A stretch of DNA of 64,000 nucleotides from the human T2T-CHM13v2.0 reference genome, Homo sapiens. Each line of letters starts with the position of its first letter. The first letter of the stretch is position 1. The position numbers and the translations under genes were made by a program. The stretch lies in NCBI RefSeq assembly GCF_009914755.1, contig NC_060943.1; one strand, 5' to 3'. Below, piece by piece: positions 3,322 to 13,843 of the stretch. The notes under the pieces are model-generated. The model was not told where the DNA came from. It did not search any database and saw nothing but the letters and a program-made list of their open reading frames with translations.

Positions 3322-3576
3322 ATGGCCCAGATGGCCCCACCATTTCCCCCTCAAAGGCCAATTACCGTCCAGGGGAAAATCTGAACCTCTCCTGCCACGC
3401 AGCCTCTAACCCACCTGCACAGTACTCTTGGTTTATCAATGGGACGTTCCAGCAATCCACACAAGAGCTCTTTATCCCCAACATCACTGTGAATAATAGC
3501 GGATCCTATATGTGCCAAGCCCATAACTCAGCCACTGGCCTCAATAGGACCACAGTCACGATGATCACAGTCTCTG
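3322..3576 (+). CDS. CEACAM6: CEACAM6 exon 4, IgC2-like B domain (YGPDGPTISPSKANY...TMITVS)
   Basis: 255-nt exon, ctccag| acceptor and |gtaagt donor; matches CEACAM6 B domain; residue 239 is Gly (GGC, 3333-3335). Confidence 0.97.
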
Positions 3577-5143
3577 GTAAGTGGATCCATGAAGCACTAG
3601 CATCACATTTTCAGGTGGAGTCTGGCTCTCAGAGAAGAGCCAGGAAGAAATTTTCTTTCCCAACCTGTGTCCAAGGGGCACACGCAAATCCCAAATTCTC
3701 CCCTGAACCCTCCCAATTCACCTCTGCAGACTCTTTTCCCCTTGTTTTTTTGTTTTTTGTTGTTTTTTGTTTTTTGATTTCTCATGTCTGACTTTGGGTC
3801 CATCCTGGAATGAGAGGAGGGGGCTCCCTCAGCACTGAGCCCTGTGTAGTGAAAGGGGCTTCACAGAGAAAAAAGGAGGAAGGGTCCTCAGGGTCAAGTT
3901 CCTGCTCTCTGTCACCAACAATTCCCTTTCTGTCACTTCTTTGTGTTCTTTTACCTACTCCATAAGCTACAAGGGACAAGGAGGTTTTGAAATGAGCTCA
4001 CACTTTTTCCTTAAATGAGAAGAGGAAGCCCCTTGGGTGATGGAGGAGCAGCTCAGACTCTGCCCCCATCTCTGCTCCCAGCACCCCCAGTGACTGACTG
4101 ACCCCACCCTGAAGCCACCTAAGGTGGAACCAGGGCATATGGAGAAGGTGCCCAGGTGTCTGTCCTGAATCAGGCTAAATCAAGATGCTAATCAACACCA
4201 AAGCCTCCCCTGGATCAGGCCGCAGGAAAATGGGAAGACATGGAGCCTCATGACAGACTGCTGAGCTGTGTCCTGGCTCTGAAGTCACTGGCTGTATAAG
4301 ACTGTGGGCACAGCACATGGGACACAGCACAGAGGACAGCAAGTGACGCACACTTGGAGACATAGGGAGATTCAGCCATGGGGACTCTGCATGGCAGGGA
4401 AGGGGCAGTGCCAAAAAGTGTGTATTTATAGAGAGGATAAGACTACCAGCCACTATGTATCTAATATAGGACTTACCTTTTCAACCCTTCCACGTGTGCA
4501 GGTCCGTAGTATTAAACACATTCCCGTTGTTCTGCTACCATCACCACCACCCACCCACAGAACTCTCTTCTTCCTCCCAAAATGAAACTCTGTTCCCATC
4601 AAACTCCTGGGCAGAGCTGCCCACCTGTGACCCACAGCCTGACCCCTGAACTCACCTCTAGACTTGCTTCTGGTCTCCCGCTCAAACCCCCATCCCCATC
4701 ATCACCCATCTCCAGGATGTCCTTAAATAGCAAAGCCTCAGAAAAAACACACCTTGGCTGGGTGGTGTGGGACTGTGCAGCTGAAAGAAACAGCACCTGC
4801 ATGTTCCAGGTGAGTACCCCAAAAGACCAGGCAGTCAGCCAGTCAGGGAAGAAACAGGAGAGGTGCCAGAGGCTGTGGCTGTCAGTCCTGTATCTGCCCA
4901 AGACTCAATGCTTCTGCCCTATTCACATTTGAGAAAGTCTGTACTTCTCCCACACAAAGCAGGTGGCCTCGATCTCCGAGCCCTCAGATCGTTGTGCATC
5001 CGTCTTCTGACACACACACCTGCCCTGGGCTCTTAAGGACTTGGGTGGACTGAGGGGTGGGAGATGCCAACTCTGATTGAACGATGCCTGCAGAGGAATC
5101 AAAGGTGCCACACAGGGCAATCTTCTCTCTGTTTTCTGCACAG

Positions 5144-5193
5144 CGGAGCTGCCCAAGCCCTCGGTCACTAGCAACAACTCCAACCCTGTAGAG
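5144..5193 (+). pseudogene. Truncated second A-domain (A2-like) exon remnant in CEACAM6 intron 4
   Basis: Intact acceptor identical to exon 3; encodes [16 protein letters not shown], then switches abruptly to antisense L1; upstream ~4595-5143 duplicates ~2005-2601. Confidence 0.88.
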
Positions 5194-6235
5194 TTTTCTA
5201 CATATAAGTTTAAGTTATCTGTGAACAGAGATAATTTTACTTCTTTCCGATTTGGATGTCTGTTTATTTGTTTGTTTGCTGCCTAATTTCTCCAGCTAGG
5301 ACTTAAAATACTATGTTGAAGAGAAGTGGGGCAAGCAGGCATCCTTGTCTTGCTCCTGGTCTTACAGGGAAAGCTTTCAGTCTTTCTCCATTGAGTATCC
5401 CTCTATTATGTTGAGGTGGTTTCCTTCCATTCACAGAGTGTTTTTATTTATAAAAGAATGTTGAATTTTGTCAAATGCTTTTATTGGCTAAATCTTATTA
5501 CTAATTATAGGTCTATTCAGATTTTTTTGTGTGTTCCAGGAATTTGTCCGTTTCATCTAGGTTATCCAATTTGTTGGCATACAATTATTTACCGCACTCT
5601 TTTAATCTTTATTATTTCTGTAGAATTGGTAGCAATGTCATCAATTTTTTTGAGAGTAGGTCTCACTCTGTAACCCAACCCAAGCTGGAGTGCAGTGGCT
5701 TGATCATAGCTTACTTGCAGGCTGAACCCCCTGGGCTCAAGTGATCCTCCTACCTCAGCCTCCTGAGTAGCTGGGACTACAGGCATATGCCATCATGCCT
5801 GGCTAGTTTAAAAAAAAAAAAATGTGGAGACTGTGTCGCCCTATGTTGCATAGGCTGGTCATGACTTTCTGGCCTCAAGCAACCCTCATCCTCTGACCTA
5901 CCAGGGTGCTGGAATTAAAGGTGTGAGCCACCATGCCCCCATTTTCATTTCTGATTTTAGTAATCTGAATCTTCTCTTTTTTTCTCAGTCAACCTAGTAA
6001 ATGATTGTCAATTTTGTTGATCTGTTTTGAAGAACCAACTTTTGGTTTCATTGACTCCCTTTATTGTTTTTATAGCCTCCATTTTATTTATTTCAGTTAT
6101 AATTCTTATTGTTTCCTTCATTCACTATCTTTGGGTTGATTTTGTTCTTTTTCTATATCCTGAATTTGTAAAGTTAGGTTGTTGATTTGAGGTCTCTCTT
6201 TAATGTAAGTATTTACCACTATCAATTTCTTGCAC
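5190..6235 (-). mobile_element. Old L1 (L1M) ORF2 fragments with an AluJ inserted at ~5645-5940
   Basis: Antisense L1 ORF2 phrases (gggcaagcaggcatccttgtcttgctcctg, aagaaccaacttttggtttcattg). Confidence 0.8.
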
Positions 6236-7535
6236 AAGATTCTTAACTTCTCTGAGCCTTCAATTCTTCAACTGAAAATTGCAATAATTCTCATCACTAA
6301 GAAATGGGTGGAAAAAATGAAAATTGAAATAACAATGCCTGTTTCATAGTATCGTTTTGAAGATTTAATGTAACATTTGATTAAGCCTTCAGCAAAATGC
6401 CACACACAAAGAAAAGCTTCACAAATATTAGCTATTATTATTACTACTGTTACCATTAACCTTAAAGTCAGGTAGTCCTAGAGTCAAATTCTAAATCCAC
6501 TTGTCACTAACCATGTGACTTTGGATAAGTTTTCTCATCACCCTAAGCCTCTGTCTTTTCATCTGTAAAATGGAAATAATGTCTACCCAAGAGAGTTACT
6601 GTATAAATCAAATGAGATACAGGTAAAGTATTTAGCACAGGGCCTGGTATCTAGGACATGCCCCTCAACAGTAGCTAACCTAGCATTAACCATCGCACTG
6701 AGATGACTGGTGAGGGCTAAGCACCAAATGGAAACTCACTAGGACATGGTTACTGGCTAAACATGGGAGAGAGGAAAAACAGTGCAAAGAATCAAGCCTG
6801 GTATGTTAGCTTTCATCCACTGAGATGCAGCCAAGATGGGATTAGAGGTACAAGATAATTCACTGGGTAAAACAGCCATGAGGGAAGGTGGAGCAGCAGT
6901 GACAGGAGAGCCTAAGAGAGCCCTCAGACCACGATGCAGATCTCATTCCTGAGAAGGAGAAAGAGAAGGAGGGAAGTTTTACATAGCAGTGCAGTTCTGA
7001 GTTTCCCCAAGACCGATGGGGAGTCCTTGAACCCCTCACCCATGAGAGTGAAGCAGGGTCTCACAGACCTGGGCTTGCTTTCTTTCCCCTGGTGGGAGCC
7101 CATGGGAAGTGAGTTCTCTGTGCAAAGAACATAGTAAATTCAGAATGCACTAGCCTGGGCCTTCTGTCCATCAAGTCCCTGCCATAGAGCTCCAACAGGC
7201 TCTTATTCATGGCTGCCACAATTGAGACACTGAGAAAAAGATGCAAACATAAAAATATAGAAAGTTCTAATGACATGCAAAAATAGCAATCAGACTTTCT
7301 CAAATTTTCAAAGCCTTCAAAAATGTCTGAGTGCAGAAAGAACAGGATGAAATTGACAGAAGACTGATCACCAACCTAGAAACGTGGTAAGAGAGAAAAA
7401 AAATTGCAACTTTCCCACAAAACTAGTGTATTCCTTGAAGGAACAAGTCAAGCCTACTTCATGTTGACAGCTAGTTCTTGGGGACCCCACTGTAGAATAA
7501 CATCACCTTCATTCCTTCTCTCTTCTTCCCACAAG

Positions 7536-7612
7536 GAAGTGCTCCTGTCCTCTCAGCTGTGGCCACCGTCGGCATCACGATTGGAGTGCTGGCCAGGGTG
7601 GCTCTGATATAG
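7536..7612 (+). CDS. CEACAM6: CEACAM6 exon 5 coding part, GPI-anchor signal GSAPVLSAVATVGITIGVLARVALI*; exon continues to 7652
   Basis: Pyrimidine tract + cacaag| acceptor, TAG at 7610-7612, donor ggcag|gtatga at 7653. With the family-standard 64+360 nt upstream exons the CDS is 1035 nt = 344 aa. Confidence 0.96.
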
Positions 7613-8077
7613 CAGCCCTGGTGTATTTTCGATATTTCAGGAAGACTGGCAGGTATGATCGCCTTTCCTCTTGCCATGTTTCCTGCAGGGCTGACCACCA
7701 TGCTTGGGAAAGGAAAAAAACTTCTTCACCTGTATCTGGGACTGGATCTCCTTCTACCGCTAAACTCCTGCTTCTCAGCACTAATTCCTGCAGGTCTCTT
7801 CTTCCCTGGTCTTCATGCTCCCTGTACCCCACTGTCTCCTAGATATAATTATCCCCAGCCTCTGCTCATTTGTTTCCTAGAGTCAATACATTGTCAAAGC
7901 CTCTTCGTCCTTTTTCAACATCTCTCACTTTTGTCAGTCTCTCCATTCCCATCAACCTCAATAATTGTTCAACATCCTGCTTGACCCCTTGTTGTAAGGT
8001 TGGAATCCTTCTTGCATATGACTGCCTCATTATCTTCCTAAAATCTAGTTCACTCACCTACTTAAGGAGCCAAAGGG

Positions 8078-8444
<367 letters not shown>

Positions 8445-9419
8445 TTACTTCCTTTCCCTCTACTTCCCAGTATAATTCCTCCATCTTAATTAGAATCTGA
8501 CTCTCTACACATCCCTGCCCCTTTACCCCGGATGCACATAGAATTCTTAGTTTCAATGTTACACCTAAAAACAGGGTGATCTCCCCTCCACTACCTGCCC
8601 TGTGGACTTACTCACACCCTTCATCACAAGCAACCTCTTATTTCATGGAGAACACAGACTGTGTAGTATTAATATGTGAACTTTGGACACATCCTGCATG
8701 TGGCTGAGAACCTTTTCCTGACAATCAATTCATGTGTTCATAACAGATACAGAAATGAAGAAGGCAAGGTCCCTACCCCCAGGGAACATAAAGCCCAAGA
8801 CAGGAGATAAGACCTGAAAAATAATCATGATACCAAAGTAGAAAGGAGCGAATGCCACAAAAATTCAGATAAATCTGATGGGAAATATAGCTACACATTG
8901 GAATCACTCCGAAACATTTTTAAAAACGGATGCTCAAGCCCCAACCATAAATTCTGATCTACTGATCTGGAGTGGGACCCAGGCATTGGTAATTTTTAAG
9001 CCTCTCCAGACGCTACTAATGTGTAGCCACGATGGAGGATCCCTGTTCTAATAGGTAGGACTTGGGGCTAAACCCATGGTTTTTAGCTAGGAGGATTAGA
9101 ATTACCTCTGGAGCTTTTTCAACATACATGGGCCTATACTTTGTTGGCCTAATTCATTAATGGGCTCCACCAAGAACTCAGTAATCTAACTGAGAAACAG
9201 AAACTAAAAGGAAAAGCCGCCTTATTTGATATGTTACATTATATGGGAAGCACTGTCAAATGATAAGTGATGCTAAACCTTCTCTAAGTTATATTTATGG
9301 TTATGTTATTGATGTGAGTGTTCCAAAAATTATAAGAGATTCCCAGAAATCTAACAGATTATAAGCCATAATGTCATATGCCACAGAAGTAACTAAATGT
9401 CTATGGGAGATGCATTCTT

Positions 9420-10178
9420 TTTTTATTTTTATTTTTATTTATTTTTATTTTTTTTTATTGATCATTCTTGGGTGTTTCTCGCAGAGGGGGATTTGGCAGG
9501 GTCATAGGACAATAGTGGAGGGAAGGTCAGCAGATAAACAAGTGAACAAAGAAACAAGTGAACAAAGGTCTCTGGTTTTCCTAGGCAGAGGACCCTGCGG
9601 CCTTCCGCAGTGTTTGTGTCCCTGGGTACTTGAGATTAGGGAGTGGTGATGACTCTTAACGAGCATGCTGCCTTCAAGGATCTGTTTAACAAAGCACATC
9701 TTGTACCGCCCTTAATCCATTTAACCCTGAGTGGACACAGCACATGTTTCAGAGAGCACAAGTTTGGGGGTAAGGTCACAGTTCAACAGGATCCCAAGGC
9801 AGAAGAATTTTTCTTAGTACAGAACAAAATGAAAAGTCTCCCATGTCTACTTCTTTCTACACAGACACGGCAACCATCCGATTTCTCAATCTTTTCCCCA
9901 CCTTTCCCCCTTTTCTATTCCACAAAACTGCCATTGTCATCATGGCCCGTTCTCAATGAGCTGTTGGGTACACCTCCCAGACGGGGTGGTGGCCAGGCAG
10001 AGGGGCTCCTCACTTCCCAGTAGGGGCGGCTGGGCAGAGGCGCCCCTCACCTCCCGGACGGGGCGGCTGGCCGGGCGGGGGGCTGACCCCCCCACCTCCC
10101 TCCCGGACGGGGCGGCTGGCCGGGCAGAGGGGCTCCTCACTTCCCAGTAGGGGCGGCCGGGCAGAGGCGCCCCTCACC
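9420..10178 (-). mobile_element. 5'-truncated SVA retrotransposon (VNTR remnant + SINE-R + poly(A))
   Basis: Antisense SINE-R and GC-rich VNTR units; perfect 16-bp TSD TGGGAGATGCATTCTT at 9404-9419 and 10179-10194. Confidence 0.95.
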
Positions 10179-10269
10179 TGGGAGATGCATTCTTATCATA
10201 ATGAACTCTCATCAGATGTTTAACCATACTCATTTTCAATCTTTGTCATTCACTGACAATTGTTTTTTG

Positions 10270-10600
<331 letters not shown>

Positions 10601-11029
10601 GACAATTATTTTGATTCTTCCTTCCTTAAAGCATTTGCAATCAGCTACCATCCAAAATTGCTTCTTCATTGAGGATATTTACAGAAAATACTCCGACATG
10701 TACTCTTGAATACAAGTTTCTGATAACATTAAAATCATACCATTAGACTATTTAAGAATTTCCAAAATTTTAACAAACTGATAGCTTCATGAAACTGCCA
10801 ACCAAGAGCAAGCAGAGAATTCATTTCATGAGACTAAAAGAAAATAATGAAAATAATATTTTTATGATTTTTTATTTGAAATTTTGTGGATTCTTTGTTT
10901 TGTTTCCCAGATTTCAGGAAACATTTTTTCTTTCAAGCTATCTAGAGCTTCAACAATTTTGCGAACAAAAATTGAAACATCTATATTTTCTCCCTACCTG
11001 ACTGCTCCAGAATTCGGAAATTATTCATG

Positions 11030-11260
11030 AATATTTATATGTTTATAATAATATCGTTATTTGCACAAAAAATATAGTTATTAATATTGTTATAAAATAA
11101 TTATTATTGATAAACAATTATTTGATGATCATTATTTAATAATTTATTAATATTTATTAATAAATTAATAATTATTATTTAACGACTAATTGTAATTGTT
11201 AATTAATATTAATATTATATAATAAATATAATAGTATAGTTATTTGCTCAATAAAAATCT
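11030..11260. repeat. AT-rich low-complexity tract
   Basis: Almost only A/T, irregular TAA/ATT repeats. Confidence 0.85.
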
Positions 11261-11479
11261 GCTCCCTTTATAACAGGATACATTTGAAAACACTGGTTAT
11301 ATTACCCAGGCTTTGATTGGGATGTTATATTTGGGAATATACATAGATGAACCCATAGGCACTGCTGGCAAAGTCTGAAGTCGGCCTTGGTTTGGCTTCC
11401 TCATGTCAAGAGGTTTCTAAAAGTTTAATCTGAGATTCCTTATAAAAACTTCCTGTAAAACAAACTTGAAAAGACCCCA

Positions 11480-11930
<451 letters not shown>

Positions 11931-12151
11931 CTATGTGGTCACCTGCTACTCTTGTTGCACTTATATAAAGAATGAGGCCAAGTTCGATGAGACTAAACTT
12001 ATTTGGAAAACAAATATGTCTTACTGGGATTATCTTTGGTAGAAATAAAGATGCCTATGAAGAGAAAAATTATGTTGAAAAAAACTATAGTACACCTGTT
12101 ATGACATCACAGCTCTGCTTATTGTTTTTTATTTTCATTATCCACCTATAG

Positions 12152-13557
12152 ATTGGACCAGACCCTGAATTCTTCTAGCTCCTCCAATCCCATTTTATCC
12201 CATGGAACCACTAAAAACAAGGTCTGCTCTGCTCCTGAAGCCCTATATGCTGGAGATGGACAACTCAATGAAAATTTAAAGGGAAAACCCTCAGGCCTGA
12301 GGTGTGTGCCACTCAGAGACTTCACCTAACTAGAGACAGGCAAACTGCAAACCATGGTGAGAAATTGACGACTTCACACTATGGACAGCTTTTCCCAAGA
12401 TGTCAAAACAAGACTCCTCATCATGATAAGGCTCTTACCCCCTTTTAATTTGTCCTTGCTTATGCCTGCCTCTTTCGCTTGGCAGGATGATGCTGTCATT
12501 AGTATTTCACAAGAAGTAGCTTCAGAGGGTAACTTAACAGAGTATCAGATCTATCTTGTCAATCCCAACGTTTTACATAAAATAAGAGATCCTTTAGTGC
12601 ACCCAGTGACTGACATTAGCAGCATCTTTAACACAGCCGTGTGTTCAAATGTACAGTGGTCCTTTTCAGAGTTGGACTTCTAGACTCACCTGTTCTCACT
12701 CCCTGTTTTAATTCAACCCAGCCATGCAATGCCAAATAATAGAATTGCTCCCTACCAGCTGAACAGGGAGGAGTCTGTGCAGTTTCTGACACTTGTTGTT
12801 GAACATGGCTAAATACAATGGGTATCGCTGAGACTAAGTTGTAGAAATTAACAAATGTGCTGCTTGGTTAAAATGGCTACACTCATCTGACTCATTCTTT
12901 ATTCTATTTTAGTTGGTTTGTATCTTGCCTAAGGTGCGTAGTCCAACTCTTGGTATTACCCTCCTAATAGTCATACTAGTAGTCATACTCCCTGGTGTAG
13001 TGTATTCTCTAAAAGCTTTAAATGTCTGCATGCAGCCAGCCATCAAATAGTGAATGGTCTCTCTTTGGCTGGAATTACAAAACTCAGAGAAATGTGTCAT
13101 CAGGAGAACATCATAACCCATGAAGGATAAAAGCCCCAAATGGTGGTAACTGATAATAGCACTAATGCTTTAAGATTTGGTCACACTCTCACCTAGGTGA
13201 GCGCATTGAGCCAGTGGTGCTAAATGCTACATACTCCAACTGAAATGTTAAGGAAGAAGATAGATCCAATTAAAAAAAATTAAAACCAATTTAAAAAAAA
13301 AAAGAACACAGGAGATTCCAGTCTACTTGAGTTAGCATAATACAGAAGTCCCCTCTACTTTAACTTTTACAAAAAAGTAACCTGAACTAATCTGATGTTA
13401 ACCAATGTATTTATTTCTGTGGTTCTGTTTCCTTGTTCCAATTTGACAAAACCCACTGTTCTTGTATTGTATTGCCCAGGGGGAGCTATCACTGTACTTG
13501 TAGAGTGGTGCTGCTTTAATTCATAAATCACAAATAAAAGCCAATTAGCTCTATAAC
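12152..13557 (+). other. CEACAM6: CEACAM6 terminal (3'UTR) exon
   Basis: Acceptor cacctatag|ATTGGACCAGACCC; continues the recalled mRNA junction ...GACTGGCAG-ATTGGACC; AATAAA at 13533-13538. Confidence 0.9.
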
Positions 13558-13586
13558 TAAATTTGTTGTAATTCTGTCTCTTGATG
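13300..13586 (+). mobile_element. MER65-like 3' LTR (partial) carrying the CEACAM6 poly(A) signal
   Basis: Ends AATAAAAGCCAATTAG...CTAAATTTGTTGTAATTCTGTCTCTTGA, resembling the recalled MER65 LTR terminus; lies directly after the env relic. Confidence 0.65.
13533..13538 (+). terminator. CEACAM6 polyadenylation signal
   Basis: AATAAA followed about 25 nt later by a GT/T-rich tract (tttgttgtaattctgtctc). Confidence 0.85.
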
Positions 13587-13589
13587 TGG

Positions 13590-13843
13590 GTTCACAGCCA
13601 GCCACGGCCAGTGGAGTCTCTCAGGCGGCGTCATTCTCACTCCGACCCTCCTGCCTTCCTCTTTCACTTACAAGGGCCCTTCTGAATACACTGAGCTCGC
13701 CCAGATTATCCAGAATAACCTCCCATCTCAAGATCCTTAACTTTACTTATTTGCAAAGTATTTTTGCCAAATAATGTAACATGCACATGTTCCAGGGATT
13801 AGGATGTGGACATTTTTAGGAGGTCATTATTCTGCCTAACACA
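13590..13843 (-). mobile_element. MLT1-type MaLR LTR fragment
   Basis: ataacctcccatctcaagatccttaac...ttccagggattaggatgtggacat...ttctgcctaacaca. Confidence 0.75.

What the first reader, a model, noticed from the sequence alone, without database searches (positions are those of the whole stretch)
12152..12168. Skipping the GPI exon yields a PSG-type secreted C-terminus (...TVSDWTRP*)
Seen: the B exon ends in phase 1 (G at 3576). Joining it to 12152 reads GAT TGG ACC AGA CCC TGA = D-W-T-R-P-stop. The stop lies in the last exon, so the transcript would escape NMD. The GPI exon has a weak AAG acceptor. Established (recalled): several secreted PSGs end in DWTVP/DWTLP-like peptides. Inference: this is the same ERV-derived exon that terminates PSGs, so CEACAM6 has a latent natively secreted isoform, and PSG secretion could arise simply by losing the membrane exon.
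Basis: partly seen in the sequence, partly recalled or inferred. Interest (0 to 1): 0.72.

Follow-up and report, generated by a model that had tools for sequence, protein, structure and literature searches.

The report
CEACAM6 last exon matches PSG ends
The start of CEACAM6's last exon is the same retrovirus-derived piece of DNA that supplies the last five amino acids of several secreted pregnancy-specific glycoproteins, so skipping CEACAM6's membrane-anchor exon would give a PSG-style secreted protein, but whether cells make it was not tested.

Summary
The B exon ends with one codon base (G, 3576). Joined to 12152 it reads D-W-T-R-P-stop, with the TGA at 12166-12168 in the last exon.

The match to PSG genes is real homology, not chance. 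All 27 chr19 copies of this site align in register. 26 keep the AG acceptor, and most keep the same frame and TGA. In 7 of 7 PSG genes examined, the B2 exon ends the same way. Joining B2 to this exon gives DWTVP, DWTLP, DWILP or DWTGP, then stop.

Six of the 11 PSG genes have lost the membrane exon outright. Five keep it with a 48-nt deletion of the hydrophobic core.

The exon lies in an old dispersed repeat. Two papers name that repeat MER65-int (ERV1) at PSG and CEACAM5 3' ends. The same insert sits in CEACAM5, 6, 7 and 8, so it predates the PSGs. This conflicts with the model published in 2026.

No RNA or protein data were available, so the proposed secreted CEACAM6 isoform is plausible but unproven. 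The PSG and ERV parts are largely known; the CEACAM6 link is a modest addition.

The parts
3322..3576 (+). CEACAM6 B-domain exon. It ends with one base (G) of a split codon; the donor is CTG|GTAAGTGG.
3577..3791 (+). Read-through of the B-exon donor into intron 4 (..TVS-GKWIHEALASHF... to a stop at 3789-3791). Two peptides of a 'novel alternative last exon' CEACAM6 isoform from a lung-cancer long-read study map here.
7506..7535 (+). Pyrimidine tract and AAG acceptor of the GPI exon. A ~20-nt deletion specific to CEACAM6 removed the ancestral acceptor, which is kept in CEACAM1, CEACAM7, CEACAM8, the single-B unit L052 and PSG gene L051.
7536..7652 (+). GPI-signal exon derived from a transmembrane exon (117 nt). 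It encodes GSAPVLSAVATVGITIGVLARVALI-stop; the stop at 7610-7612 lies 40 nt before the last junction.
12120..12151 (+). T-rich tract and TAG acceptor of the last exon. Both are inherited from the repeat: 12 of 14 dispersed copies keep the AG.
12152..12168 (+). The finding itself: AT TGG ACC AGA CCC TGA. It is 3'UTR in the reference mRNA and reads D-W-T-R-P-stop after a 3576>12152 join. It is the paralogue of the coding end of PSG genes.
12152..13561 (+). CEACAM6 terminal exon (hub annotation). It lies wholly within the dispersed repeat.
   Evidence: hub table
9157..13303 (+). Internal part of an old dispersed repeat (MER65-int according to two papers). Younger inserts interrupt it: a GC-rich repeat at 9409-10181, an Alu at about 10293-10598, and an Alu at about 11478-11921.
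   Evidence: PMC12969887; PMC9626538
13304..13584 (+). Discrete 281-nt repeat unit with sharp ends, found in many dispersed copies. It carries AATAAA at 13533-13538, 23 nt before the CEACAM6 poly(A) site at 13561. It looks like an LTR but this is not proven.

Best explanation
Positions 12152-12168 are the first 17 bases of a terminal exon that an old retrovirus-type repeat (MER65-int in published RepeatMasker calls) gave to one whole branch of the CEA family: CEACAM5, 6, 7 and 8, the 11 PSG genes and the PSG-cluster pseudogene units. The repeat brought its own pyrimidine tract, AG acceptor and an early stop in the frame set by a phase-1 Ig exon. In CEACAM6 the GPI-signal exon lies in between and ends translation, so the stretch is 3'UTR. 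In PSG genes that lost the membrane exon, the B2 exon splices straight to the same acceptor and the same TGA ends the protein after DWT(V/L/G)P or DWILP. The DWTRP-stop reading in CEACAM6 is therefore a relic of shared ancestry. Skipping the 117-nt GPI exon would give an NMD-safe mRNA for an N-A-B protein without an anchor signal, built like a short PSG. Shown here: the reading, the homology, the repeat origin and the states of the PSG genes. Inferred: that such skipping happens. I expect it at a low level at most, because the reference transcript includes the exon and its splice sites look serviceable.
For:: the skip reading is DWTRP-stop; all 27 chr19 copies align in register and 26 of 27 keep the AG. 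The peptides are DWTLP x6, DWTVP x2, DWILP x1, DWTGP x9, DWTRP x4, VWTRP x1, D-stop x3 and DWTGFF x1; in 7 of 7 PSG genes examined, B2 ends ..VS+G|GTAAG, and the join to this exon gives DWTVP, DWTLP (2), DWILP or DWTGP (3), then stop. CEACAM5, 7, 8, PSG and single-B loci are collinear with window 7263-13743; the four type-a PSG genes jump from about window 3718 to 10753; 5 PSG genes keep an 84-nt membrane-exon relic (132 nt in CEACAM8) with acceptor and donor intact; 6 PSG genes have none; copies on other chromosomes are 68-77% identical; 12 of 14 keep the AG and 13 of 14 stop within 6 codons in this frame. PMC12969887 (section 37 and passages) places MER65-int at PSG 3' ends, where it supplies poly(A) signals and distal acceptors. 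PMC9626538 (passages) says part of a MER65-int serves as an exon of CEACAM5.
Against: I saw no transcript or protein evidence for the skip in CEACAM6. The reference transcript includes the GPI exon. I could not run RepeatMasker or Dfam, so the family name rests on two papers. The Pfam scans found no retroviral domain (0 of 12 and 0 of 6 translations). No clean empty site was found beside CEACAM1, so 'insertion' cannot be told apart from 'duplication next to an existing element'. PSG gene names could not be attached to the loci because no annotation of that region was available.
Confidence: 0.85

Rival explanations
1. One reading: CEACAM6 makes a real, possibly regulated, natively secreted isoform by skipping the GPI exon (3576>12152), and this contributes to soluble CEACAM6.
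For: The frame, the stop and NMD safety are all right. The B donor (GTAAGT) and the 12152 acceptor (long T-rich tract, TAG) look strong. The GPI exon acceptor is a replacement AAG created by a 20-nt deletion. Six PSG genes use exactly this join as their normal mRNA form. The hub table lists a second RefSeq transcript that adds no new exon inside the window, so an exon-skipped model is one possibility. Another alternative C-terminus of CEACAM6 has been seen by long reads in a tumour.
Against: No report was found in the searched library: CEACAM6 with splice variant, alternative splicing or exon skipping; the peptide. The GPI exon has a good pyrimidine tract and a good donor (CAG|GTATGA). Reviews explain soluble forms of GPI-linked CEACAMs by release from the membrane (PMC13212111 passages). 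I could not see the structure of the second RefSeq transcript.
Confidence: 0.2
2. Chance: a short open frame with an early stop that merely resembles PSG ends.
For: A stop within 6 codons is expected in about a quarter of random frames (my arithmetic). The peptide is only 5 residues long.
Against: Hundreds of bases on both sides align with the PSG-cluster copies at 75-83% identity. The acceptor and the TGA are in register.
Confidence: 0.01
3. The published model: MER65-int entered only the ancestral PSG gene after it split from membrane-bound CEACAMs, and the CEACAM6 copy is a later acquisition, for example by gene conversion from a PSG.
For: PMC12969887 (discussion passage) proposes insertion after the duplication that made the ancestral PSG. 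It reports MER65 within 50 bp of gene 3' ends only at PSGs and CEACAM8. Gene conversion is common in this family (PMC2832619 abstract and passages).
Against: CEACAM5, 6, 7 and 8 all carry the element with the same upstream and downstream flanks. The CEACAM6 poly(A) site lies 23 nt inside the end of the repeat. CEACAM6 also shares with the PSG type-b genes the loss of about 6.1 kb that holds the cytoplasmic exons in CEACAM1. That paper never mentions CEACAM5 or CEACAM6 in its main text (0 occurrences). I did not read its supplementary files.
Confidence: 0.1

Closest known systems
Terminal coding exon of PSG genes that lack a membrane exon (ends DWTVP, DWTLP or DWILP)
   Same: Same repeat-derived exon, same AG acceptor, same phase-1 join from a B-type Ig exon ending ..VS+G, same TGA.
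   Different: In those PSG genes the join is the only spliced option, because the membrane exon is deleted. In CEACAM6 a used GPI exon lies in between, and the stretch is 3'UTR.
MER65-int-derived 3' ends of PSG genes (Genome Biol 2026, PMC12969887)
   Same: The same element provides the poly(A) signal and distal acceptors. The same idea applies: the membrane-anchoring end is lost in favour of a secreted form.
   Different: The paper treats this as specific to PSGs (plus CEACAM8) and as arising after the PSG ancestor formed. Here the same insert is found in CEACAM5, 6 and 7 as well. The paper does not mention CEACAM6 in its main text.
PSG genes with a shortened membrane-exon relic (5 of 11)
   Same: Same exon order as CEACAM6: B, then membrane exon, then repeat exon as 3'UTR.
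   Different: A 48-nt deletion removed the hydrophobic core, so the relic encodes 14-17 mostly non-hydrophobic residues and a stop. Secretion needs no exon skipping.
CEACAM6 isoform with an alternative last exon, found by long reads in a lung cancer (PMC7780684, Table 2)
   Same: It is another way to replace the GPI signal of CEACAM6 with a different C-terminus.
   Different: It arises by reading through the B-exon donor into intron 4 (window 3577-3791), not by exon skipping. It parallels the read-through ends seen after PSG B2 exons.
Secreted splice variants of other CEA-family members (CEACAM5 variants, PMC3850884, abstract only; pig CEACAM1 variant, PMC13212111, passage)
   Same: Alternative splicing yields soluble forms of normally membrane-bound family members.
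   Different: Different exons and mechanisms are involved. Neither paper describes skipping of the GPI or transmembrane exon onto the repeat-derived exon.

Membership tests
PSG-type terminal exon of the CEA family | Same genomic position, with collinear flanks on both sides | tested here: met
   CEACAM5, 7 and 8, PSG types a and b and the single-B units align with window 7263-13743 in order.
PSG-type terminal exon of the CEA family | Same acceptor, same reading frame after a phase-1 Ig exon, same stop codon | tested here: met
   AG kept in 26 of 27 copies. 22 of 27 read five residues and then TGA, the same length as in CEACAM6.
PSG-type terminal exon of the CEA family | Used as a coding exon in mature mRNA (junction from the last Ig exon straight to this exon) | not testable with these tools
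   No RNA-seq, EST or transcript table was available for CEACAM6 variants or for the PSG region. For PSGs the use is recalled knowledge, and it is implied by PMC12969887.
MER65-int (ERV1 internal sequence) | Dispersed copies on many chromosomes | tested here: met
   13 of the 40 scored matches lie off chr19. Searches show more.
MER65-int (ERV1 internal sequence) | Assignment by a repeat library (Dfam or RepeatMasker) | not testable with these tools
   No repeat library was held. The name comes from PMC12969887 (PSG 3' ends) and PMC9626538 (CEACAM5 exon), linked to this window by collinearity.
MER65-int (ERV1 internal sequence) | LTR-like direct repeats at both ends of full copies | tested here: inconclusive
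   the 281-nt unit 13304-13584 has sharp ends in many dispersed copies; one chr2 copy has such units on both sides; no clear LTR pair in 5 of the 6 loci examined.
MER65-int (ERV1 internal sequence) | Retroviral protein domains (gag, pol, env) | tested here: not met
   0 Pfam families in 12 and 6 translations read through with X. This is expected if the internal part is non-coding or too decayed.
GPI-anchored CEACAM | C-terminal hydrophobic signal exon with a stop, derived from a transmembrane exon | tested here: met
   the 117-nt exon encodes 25 residues and a stop, and aligns with the CEACAM1 and CEACAM3 transmembrane exons.
NMD-insensitive transcript | Stop codon in the last exon, or less than about 50 nt before the last junction | tested here: met
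   the skip form stops inside the last exon; the canonical form stops 40 nt before the last junction.

The most novel reading that the evidence does not exclude
One retroviral insert plus the loss of about 6 kb holding the cytoplasmic exons founded the whole GPI-CEACAM/PSG branch before PSGs existed. Every member that still carries the acceptor (CEACAM6, CEACAM7) would then be one exon skip away from a PSG-like secreted protein. On this reading, CEACAM6 really makes that N-A-B-DWTRP form in epithelia, neutrophils or tumours, where it adds to serum CEACAM6 and could act as a soluble decoy for bacteria or for therapeutic antibodies.
Probability: 0.2. Interest if true: 0.55.

Novelty: new member of a known kind. 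Interest (0 to 1): 0.35.

Why it matters
CEACAM6 is a tumour marker and drug target, and its soluble form is usually put down to release of the GPI-anchored protein. A natively secreted isoform would have a distinct C-terminus that could be assayed separately, and it could soak up antibodies or bacterial adhesins.

For evolution, the data show that the ERV-derived terminal exon is older than the PSG family and is shared with CEACAM5-8. This revises the published order of events. The data also show two natural routes from anchored to secreted forms: deleting the membrane exon, or deleting only its hydrophobic core. The core facts about PSG ends and MER65-int are already known, so the gain is modest unless the isoform is found.

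Tried and rejected
1. I first read the 215-nt matches flanking repeat copies as LTRs. Reading the sequence showed they are Alu elements, so I dropped that idea.

2. From the BLAST hits I first thought type-b PSG genes had lost the acceptor of the membrane exon. The alignment and the script showed the acceptor and donor are intact and that 48 nt of the hydrophobic core are missing.

3. Pfam scans of the repeat in six frames and of upstream internal parts of two dispersed copies gave 0 families.

4. A search for an empty site beside CEACAM1 failed. Homology ends near window 9138 and does not resume after 13584 within 20 kb.

5. Self-comparison of six dispersed loci for LTR pairs gave only one 190-nt pair.

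6. Literature searches for the peptides found nothing relevant: 'DWTVP' gave 0 papers and 'DWTRP' gave 2 unrelated papers. A search for PSG C-terminal isoform literature gave 3 unrelated papers. The papers from the 1980s-90s that cloned PSG genes are not in the searchable library.

7. PMC7893922 (passages) and PMC2832619 (passages) do not discuss the PSG terminal exon. PMC13005353 cites CEACAM6 only in its reference list.

8. I computed no splice-site strength score, because no scoring model was on the machine.

Full report
**The observation**

I read the three places named in the finding and joined the exons by coordinate. The B exon (3322-3576) ends ...GTC TCT G, followed by gtaagt, so it leaves one base of a codon. 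The reference join to 7536 gives ...TVS-GSAPVLSAVATVGITIGVLARVALI-stop. The join to 12152 gives GAT TGG ACC AGA CCC TGA, which reads DWTRP-stop.

The TGA (12166-12168) lies in the last exon, so no exon junction follows it. The reference stop (7610-7612) lies 40 nt before the last junction. The GPI exon acceptor is CACAAG|G. It is the only one of the 10 annotated acceptors in the window with A at -3.

**More than chance**

A stop within six codons is common in random sequence. The real test is homology, so I searched the window's own genome, which is held as G000.

With window 12100-12400 as query, 40 of 112 candidates were scored. Twenty-seven lay on chr19 (the window itself plus 26 others) and 13 on other chromosomes. 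A wider query found one more chr19 copy.

Aligned in register, 26 of the 27 chr19 copies keep the AG. With the G of a preceding phase-1 exon in front, the copies read:
- DWTLP-stop: 6
- DWTVP-stop: 2
- DWILP-stop: 1
- DWTGP-stop: 9
- DWTRP-stop: 4
- VWTRP-stop: 1
- D-stop: 3 (one of these lies beside CEACAM5)
- DWTGFF-stop: 1 (CEACAM7, which has a 7-nt deletion)

**How the PSG genes use the exon**

I mapped B-type exons (38 matches) and membrane exons (21 matches) across the cluster. There are 11 B1/B2 pairs, matching the 11 PSG genes. There are also 6 units with a single B exon.

In 7 of 7 PSG genes examined in detail, B2 ends ..VS plus G, with a GTAAG donor. Joining B2 to the repeat exon gives DWTVP (L050), DWTLP (L053, L066), DWILP (L060) or DWTGP (L051, L054, L065), each followed by a stop.

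- Four genes (type a) carry a deletion that runs from just after B2 to the middle of the repeat, equivalent to window 3718 to 10753. The membrane exon is gone, and the terminal exon sits about 950 bp after B2.
- Two further genes (L054, L065) also lack any membrane-exon relic.
- Five genes keep the relic with its ancestral acceptor (..CCATGACAG|) and its donor. The relic is 84 nt long, against 132 nt in CEACAM8. The 48 missing bases are the hydrophobic core. It reads, for example, APSGTGHLPGLNPL-stop.

The other 5 took a different route.

**Origin in a repeat**

The stretch belongs to a dispersed repeat. Copies on chromosomes 1, 2, 3, 6, 8, 10 and others match window 9157-13584 piecewise at 65-87% identity. 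In the window, younger elements interrupt the repeat, including an Alu at about 11478-11921.

Of 15 dispersed copies tried, 14 could be aligned at the acceptor site. Twelve of these keep the AG behind a pyrimidine-rich run, and 13 stop within six codons in this frame. The acceptor and the early stop therefore came with the repeat.

The last 281 nt (13304-13584) form a discrete unit with sharp ends in many dispersed copies. Forty of 442 candidates were scored: the window itself, 9 other chr19 copies and 30 on other chromosomes. This unit carries AATAAA at 13533-13538, 23 nt before the CEACAM6 poly(A) site. In one chr2 copy such units lie on both sides of the internal part.

I could not name the family with the tools at hand. 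Pfam found nothing. Two papers supply the name. PMC12969887 (section 37 read in full, plus passages) describes MER65-int (ERV1) at the 3' ends of PSGs, giving poly(A) signals and distal splice acceptors. PMC9626538 (passages) states that part of a MER65-int serves as an exon of CEACAM5. The CEACAM5 3' region is collinear with the window.

**Order of events**

CEACAM5, 7 and 8 carry the same element with the same flanks as CEACAM6. In CEACAM8 a deletion equivalent to window 11347-12534 removed this acceptor.

Beside CEACAM1, homology to the window runs through the membrane exon (window 7427-7846). It then resumes about 6.1 kb further on (window 7846-9127). The stretch that holds the CEACAM1 cytoplasmic exons is therefore absent from CEACAM6 and from the type-b PSG genes that are collinear with it.

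No non-Alu copy of the repeat lies within 20 kb after the CEACAM1 membrane exon, or in the 3' part of CEACAM3. I found no clean empty site.

The simplest reading is that the element and the loss of the cytoplasmic exons predate the split between GPI-anchored CEACAMs and PSGs. This conflicts with the model in PMC12969887, which places the insertion in the ancestral PSG. That paper does not mention CEACAM5 or CEACAM6 in its main text. I did not read its supplementary files, which may bear on this.

**The proposed CEACAM6 isoform**

Everything needed is present: a strong B donor, a strong terminal acceptor, the right frame and an NMD-safe stop. The GPI exon acceptor is a replacement. A ~20-nt deletion specific to CEACAM6 removed the ancestral acceptor, and an AAG that lies inside the exon in CEACAM8 is used instead.

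Against this, the pyrimidine tract and the donor of the GPI exon look good, and the reference mRNA includes the exon. I had no junction-read or proteome data. Searches of the paper library found no report of this isoform.

One other alternative end of CEACAM6 is documented. Two peptides from a long-read lung-cancer study (PMC7780684, Table 2) map to a read-through of the B donor into intron 4, at window 3693-3758. Equivalent read-through after PSG B2 exons gives short ends such as GKWIPASLAIGF-stop.

The hub table lists a second RefSeq transcript that adds no new exon inside the window. I could not see its structure.

**Verdict**

The ERV origin is supported mainly through the two papers. The evolutionary inference is supported for about half of the PSG genes. 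The secreted CEACAM6 isoform remains an untested, plausible, probably minor product. Most of the underlying biology is already known, and the link to CEACAM6 and the earlier dating of the insert are modest additions.

Noticed in passing
window 3577-3791: Reading through the B-exon donor gives ..TVS-GKWIHEALASHF... and a hydrophobic tail before a stop at 3789-3791. Two peptides of a 'novel alternative last exon' CEACAM6 isoform from a lung-cancer long-read study map here. PSG B2 exons give similar read-through ends.
   Followed up: partly
window 7516-7535: CEACAM6 lacks about 20 nt that all compared paralogues keep just before the membrane exon. The deletion removed the ancestral ..CCATGACAG acceptor and moved splicing to a downstream AAG. 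The protein is therefore shorter here than CEACAM8's.
   Followed up: yes
L057 (G000 chr19:45398600-45403000, CEACAM8 3' side): A deletion equivalent to window 11347-12534 removes the DWT acceptor in CEACAM8, so its last exon must start elsewhere in the same repeat.
   Followed up: partly
L055 / L033 (G000 chr19:44545900-44552000, CEACAM5 3' side): The annotated CEACAM5 end falls at about the equivalent of window 12020-12030, upstream of the acceptor equivalent. In CEACAM5 the site therefore lies outside the gene, and it reads D-stop. CEACAM5 uses an earlier part of the same repeat as its last exon.
   Followed up: partly
G000 chr19 PSG cluster: L009, L012, L015, L018, L021, L027: Six further copies of the whole CEACAM6-like last exon (75% identity over window 11925-13600; four read DWTRP-stop) each lie 6-16 kb upstream of a unit made of a single B exon, a full membrane exon and a terminal exon. 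Those units are probably the interspersed CEA-family pseudogenes.
   Followed up: no
L031 / L032 (G000 chr19:45490084-45492289): Two copies of the terminal-exon region lie about 1.2 kb apart in inverted orientation. They have the same identity to the window (82.35%) and an identical sequence in the alignment excerpt shown, which points to a recent palindromic duplication.
   Followed up: no
window 9409-10181: A GC-rich tandem-repeat block whose frames read repeated GRGGWPG-like units is inserted in the old repeat. It looks like an SVA-type VNTR, but that is a recalled guess and was not tested.
   Followed up: no
window 11723-11832: The Alu at about 11478-11921 carries an internal block of short tandem repeats (catacataggcctatact-like units) that splits it in two.
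   Followed up: no
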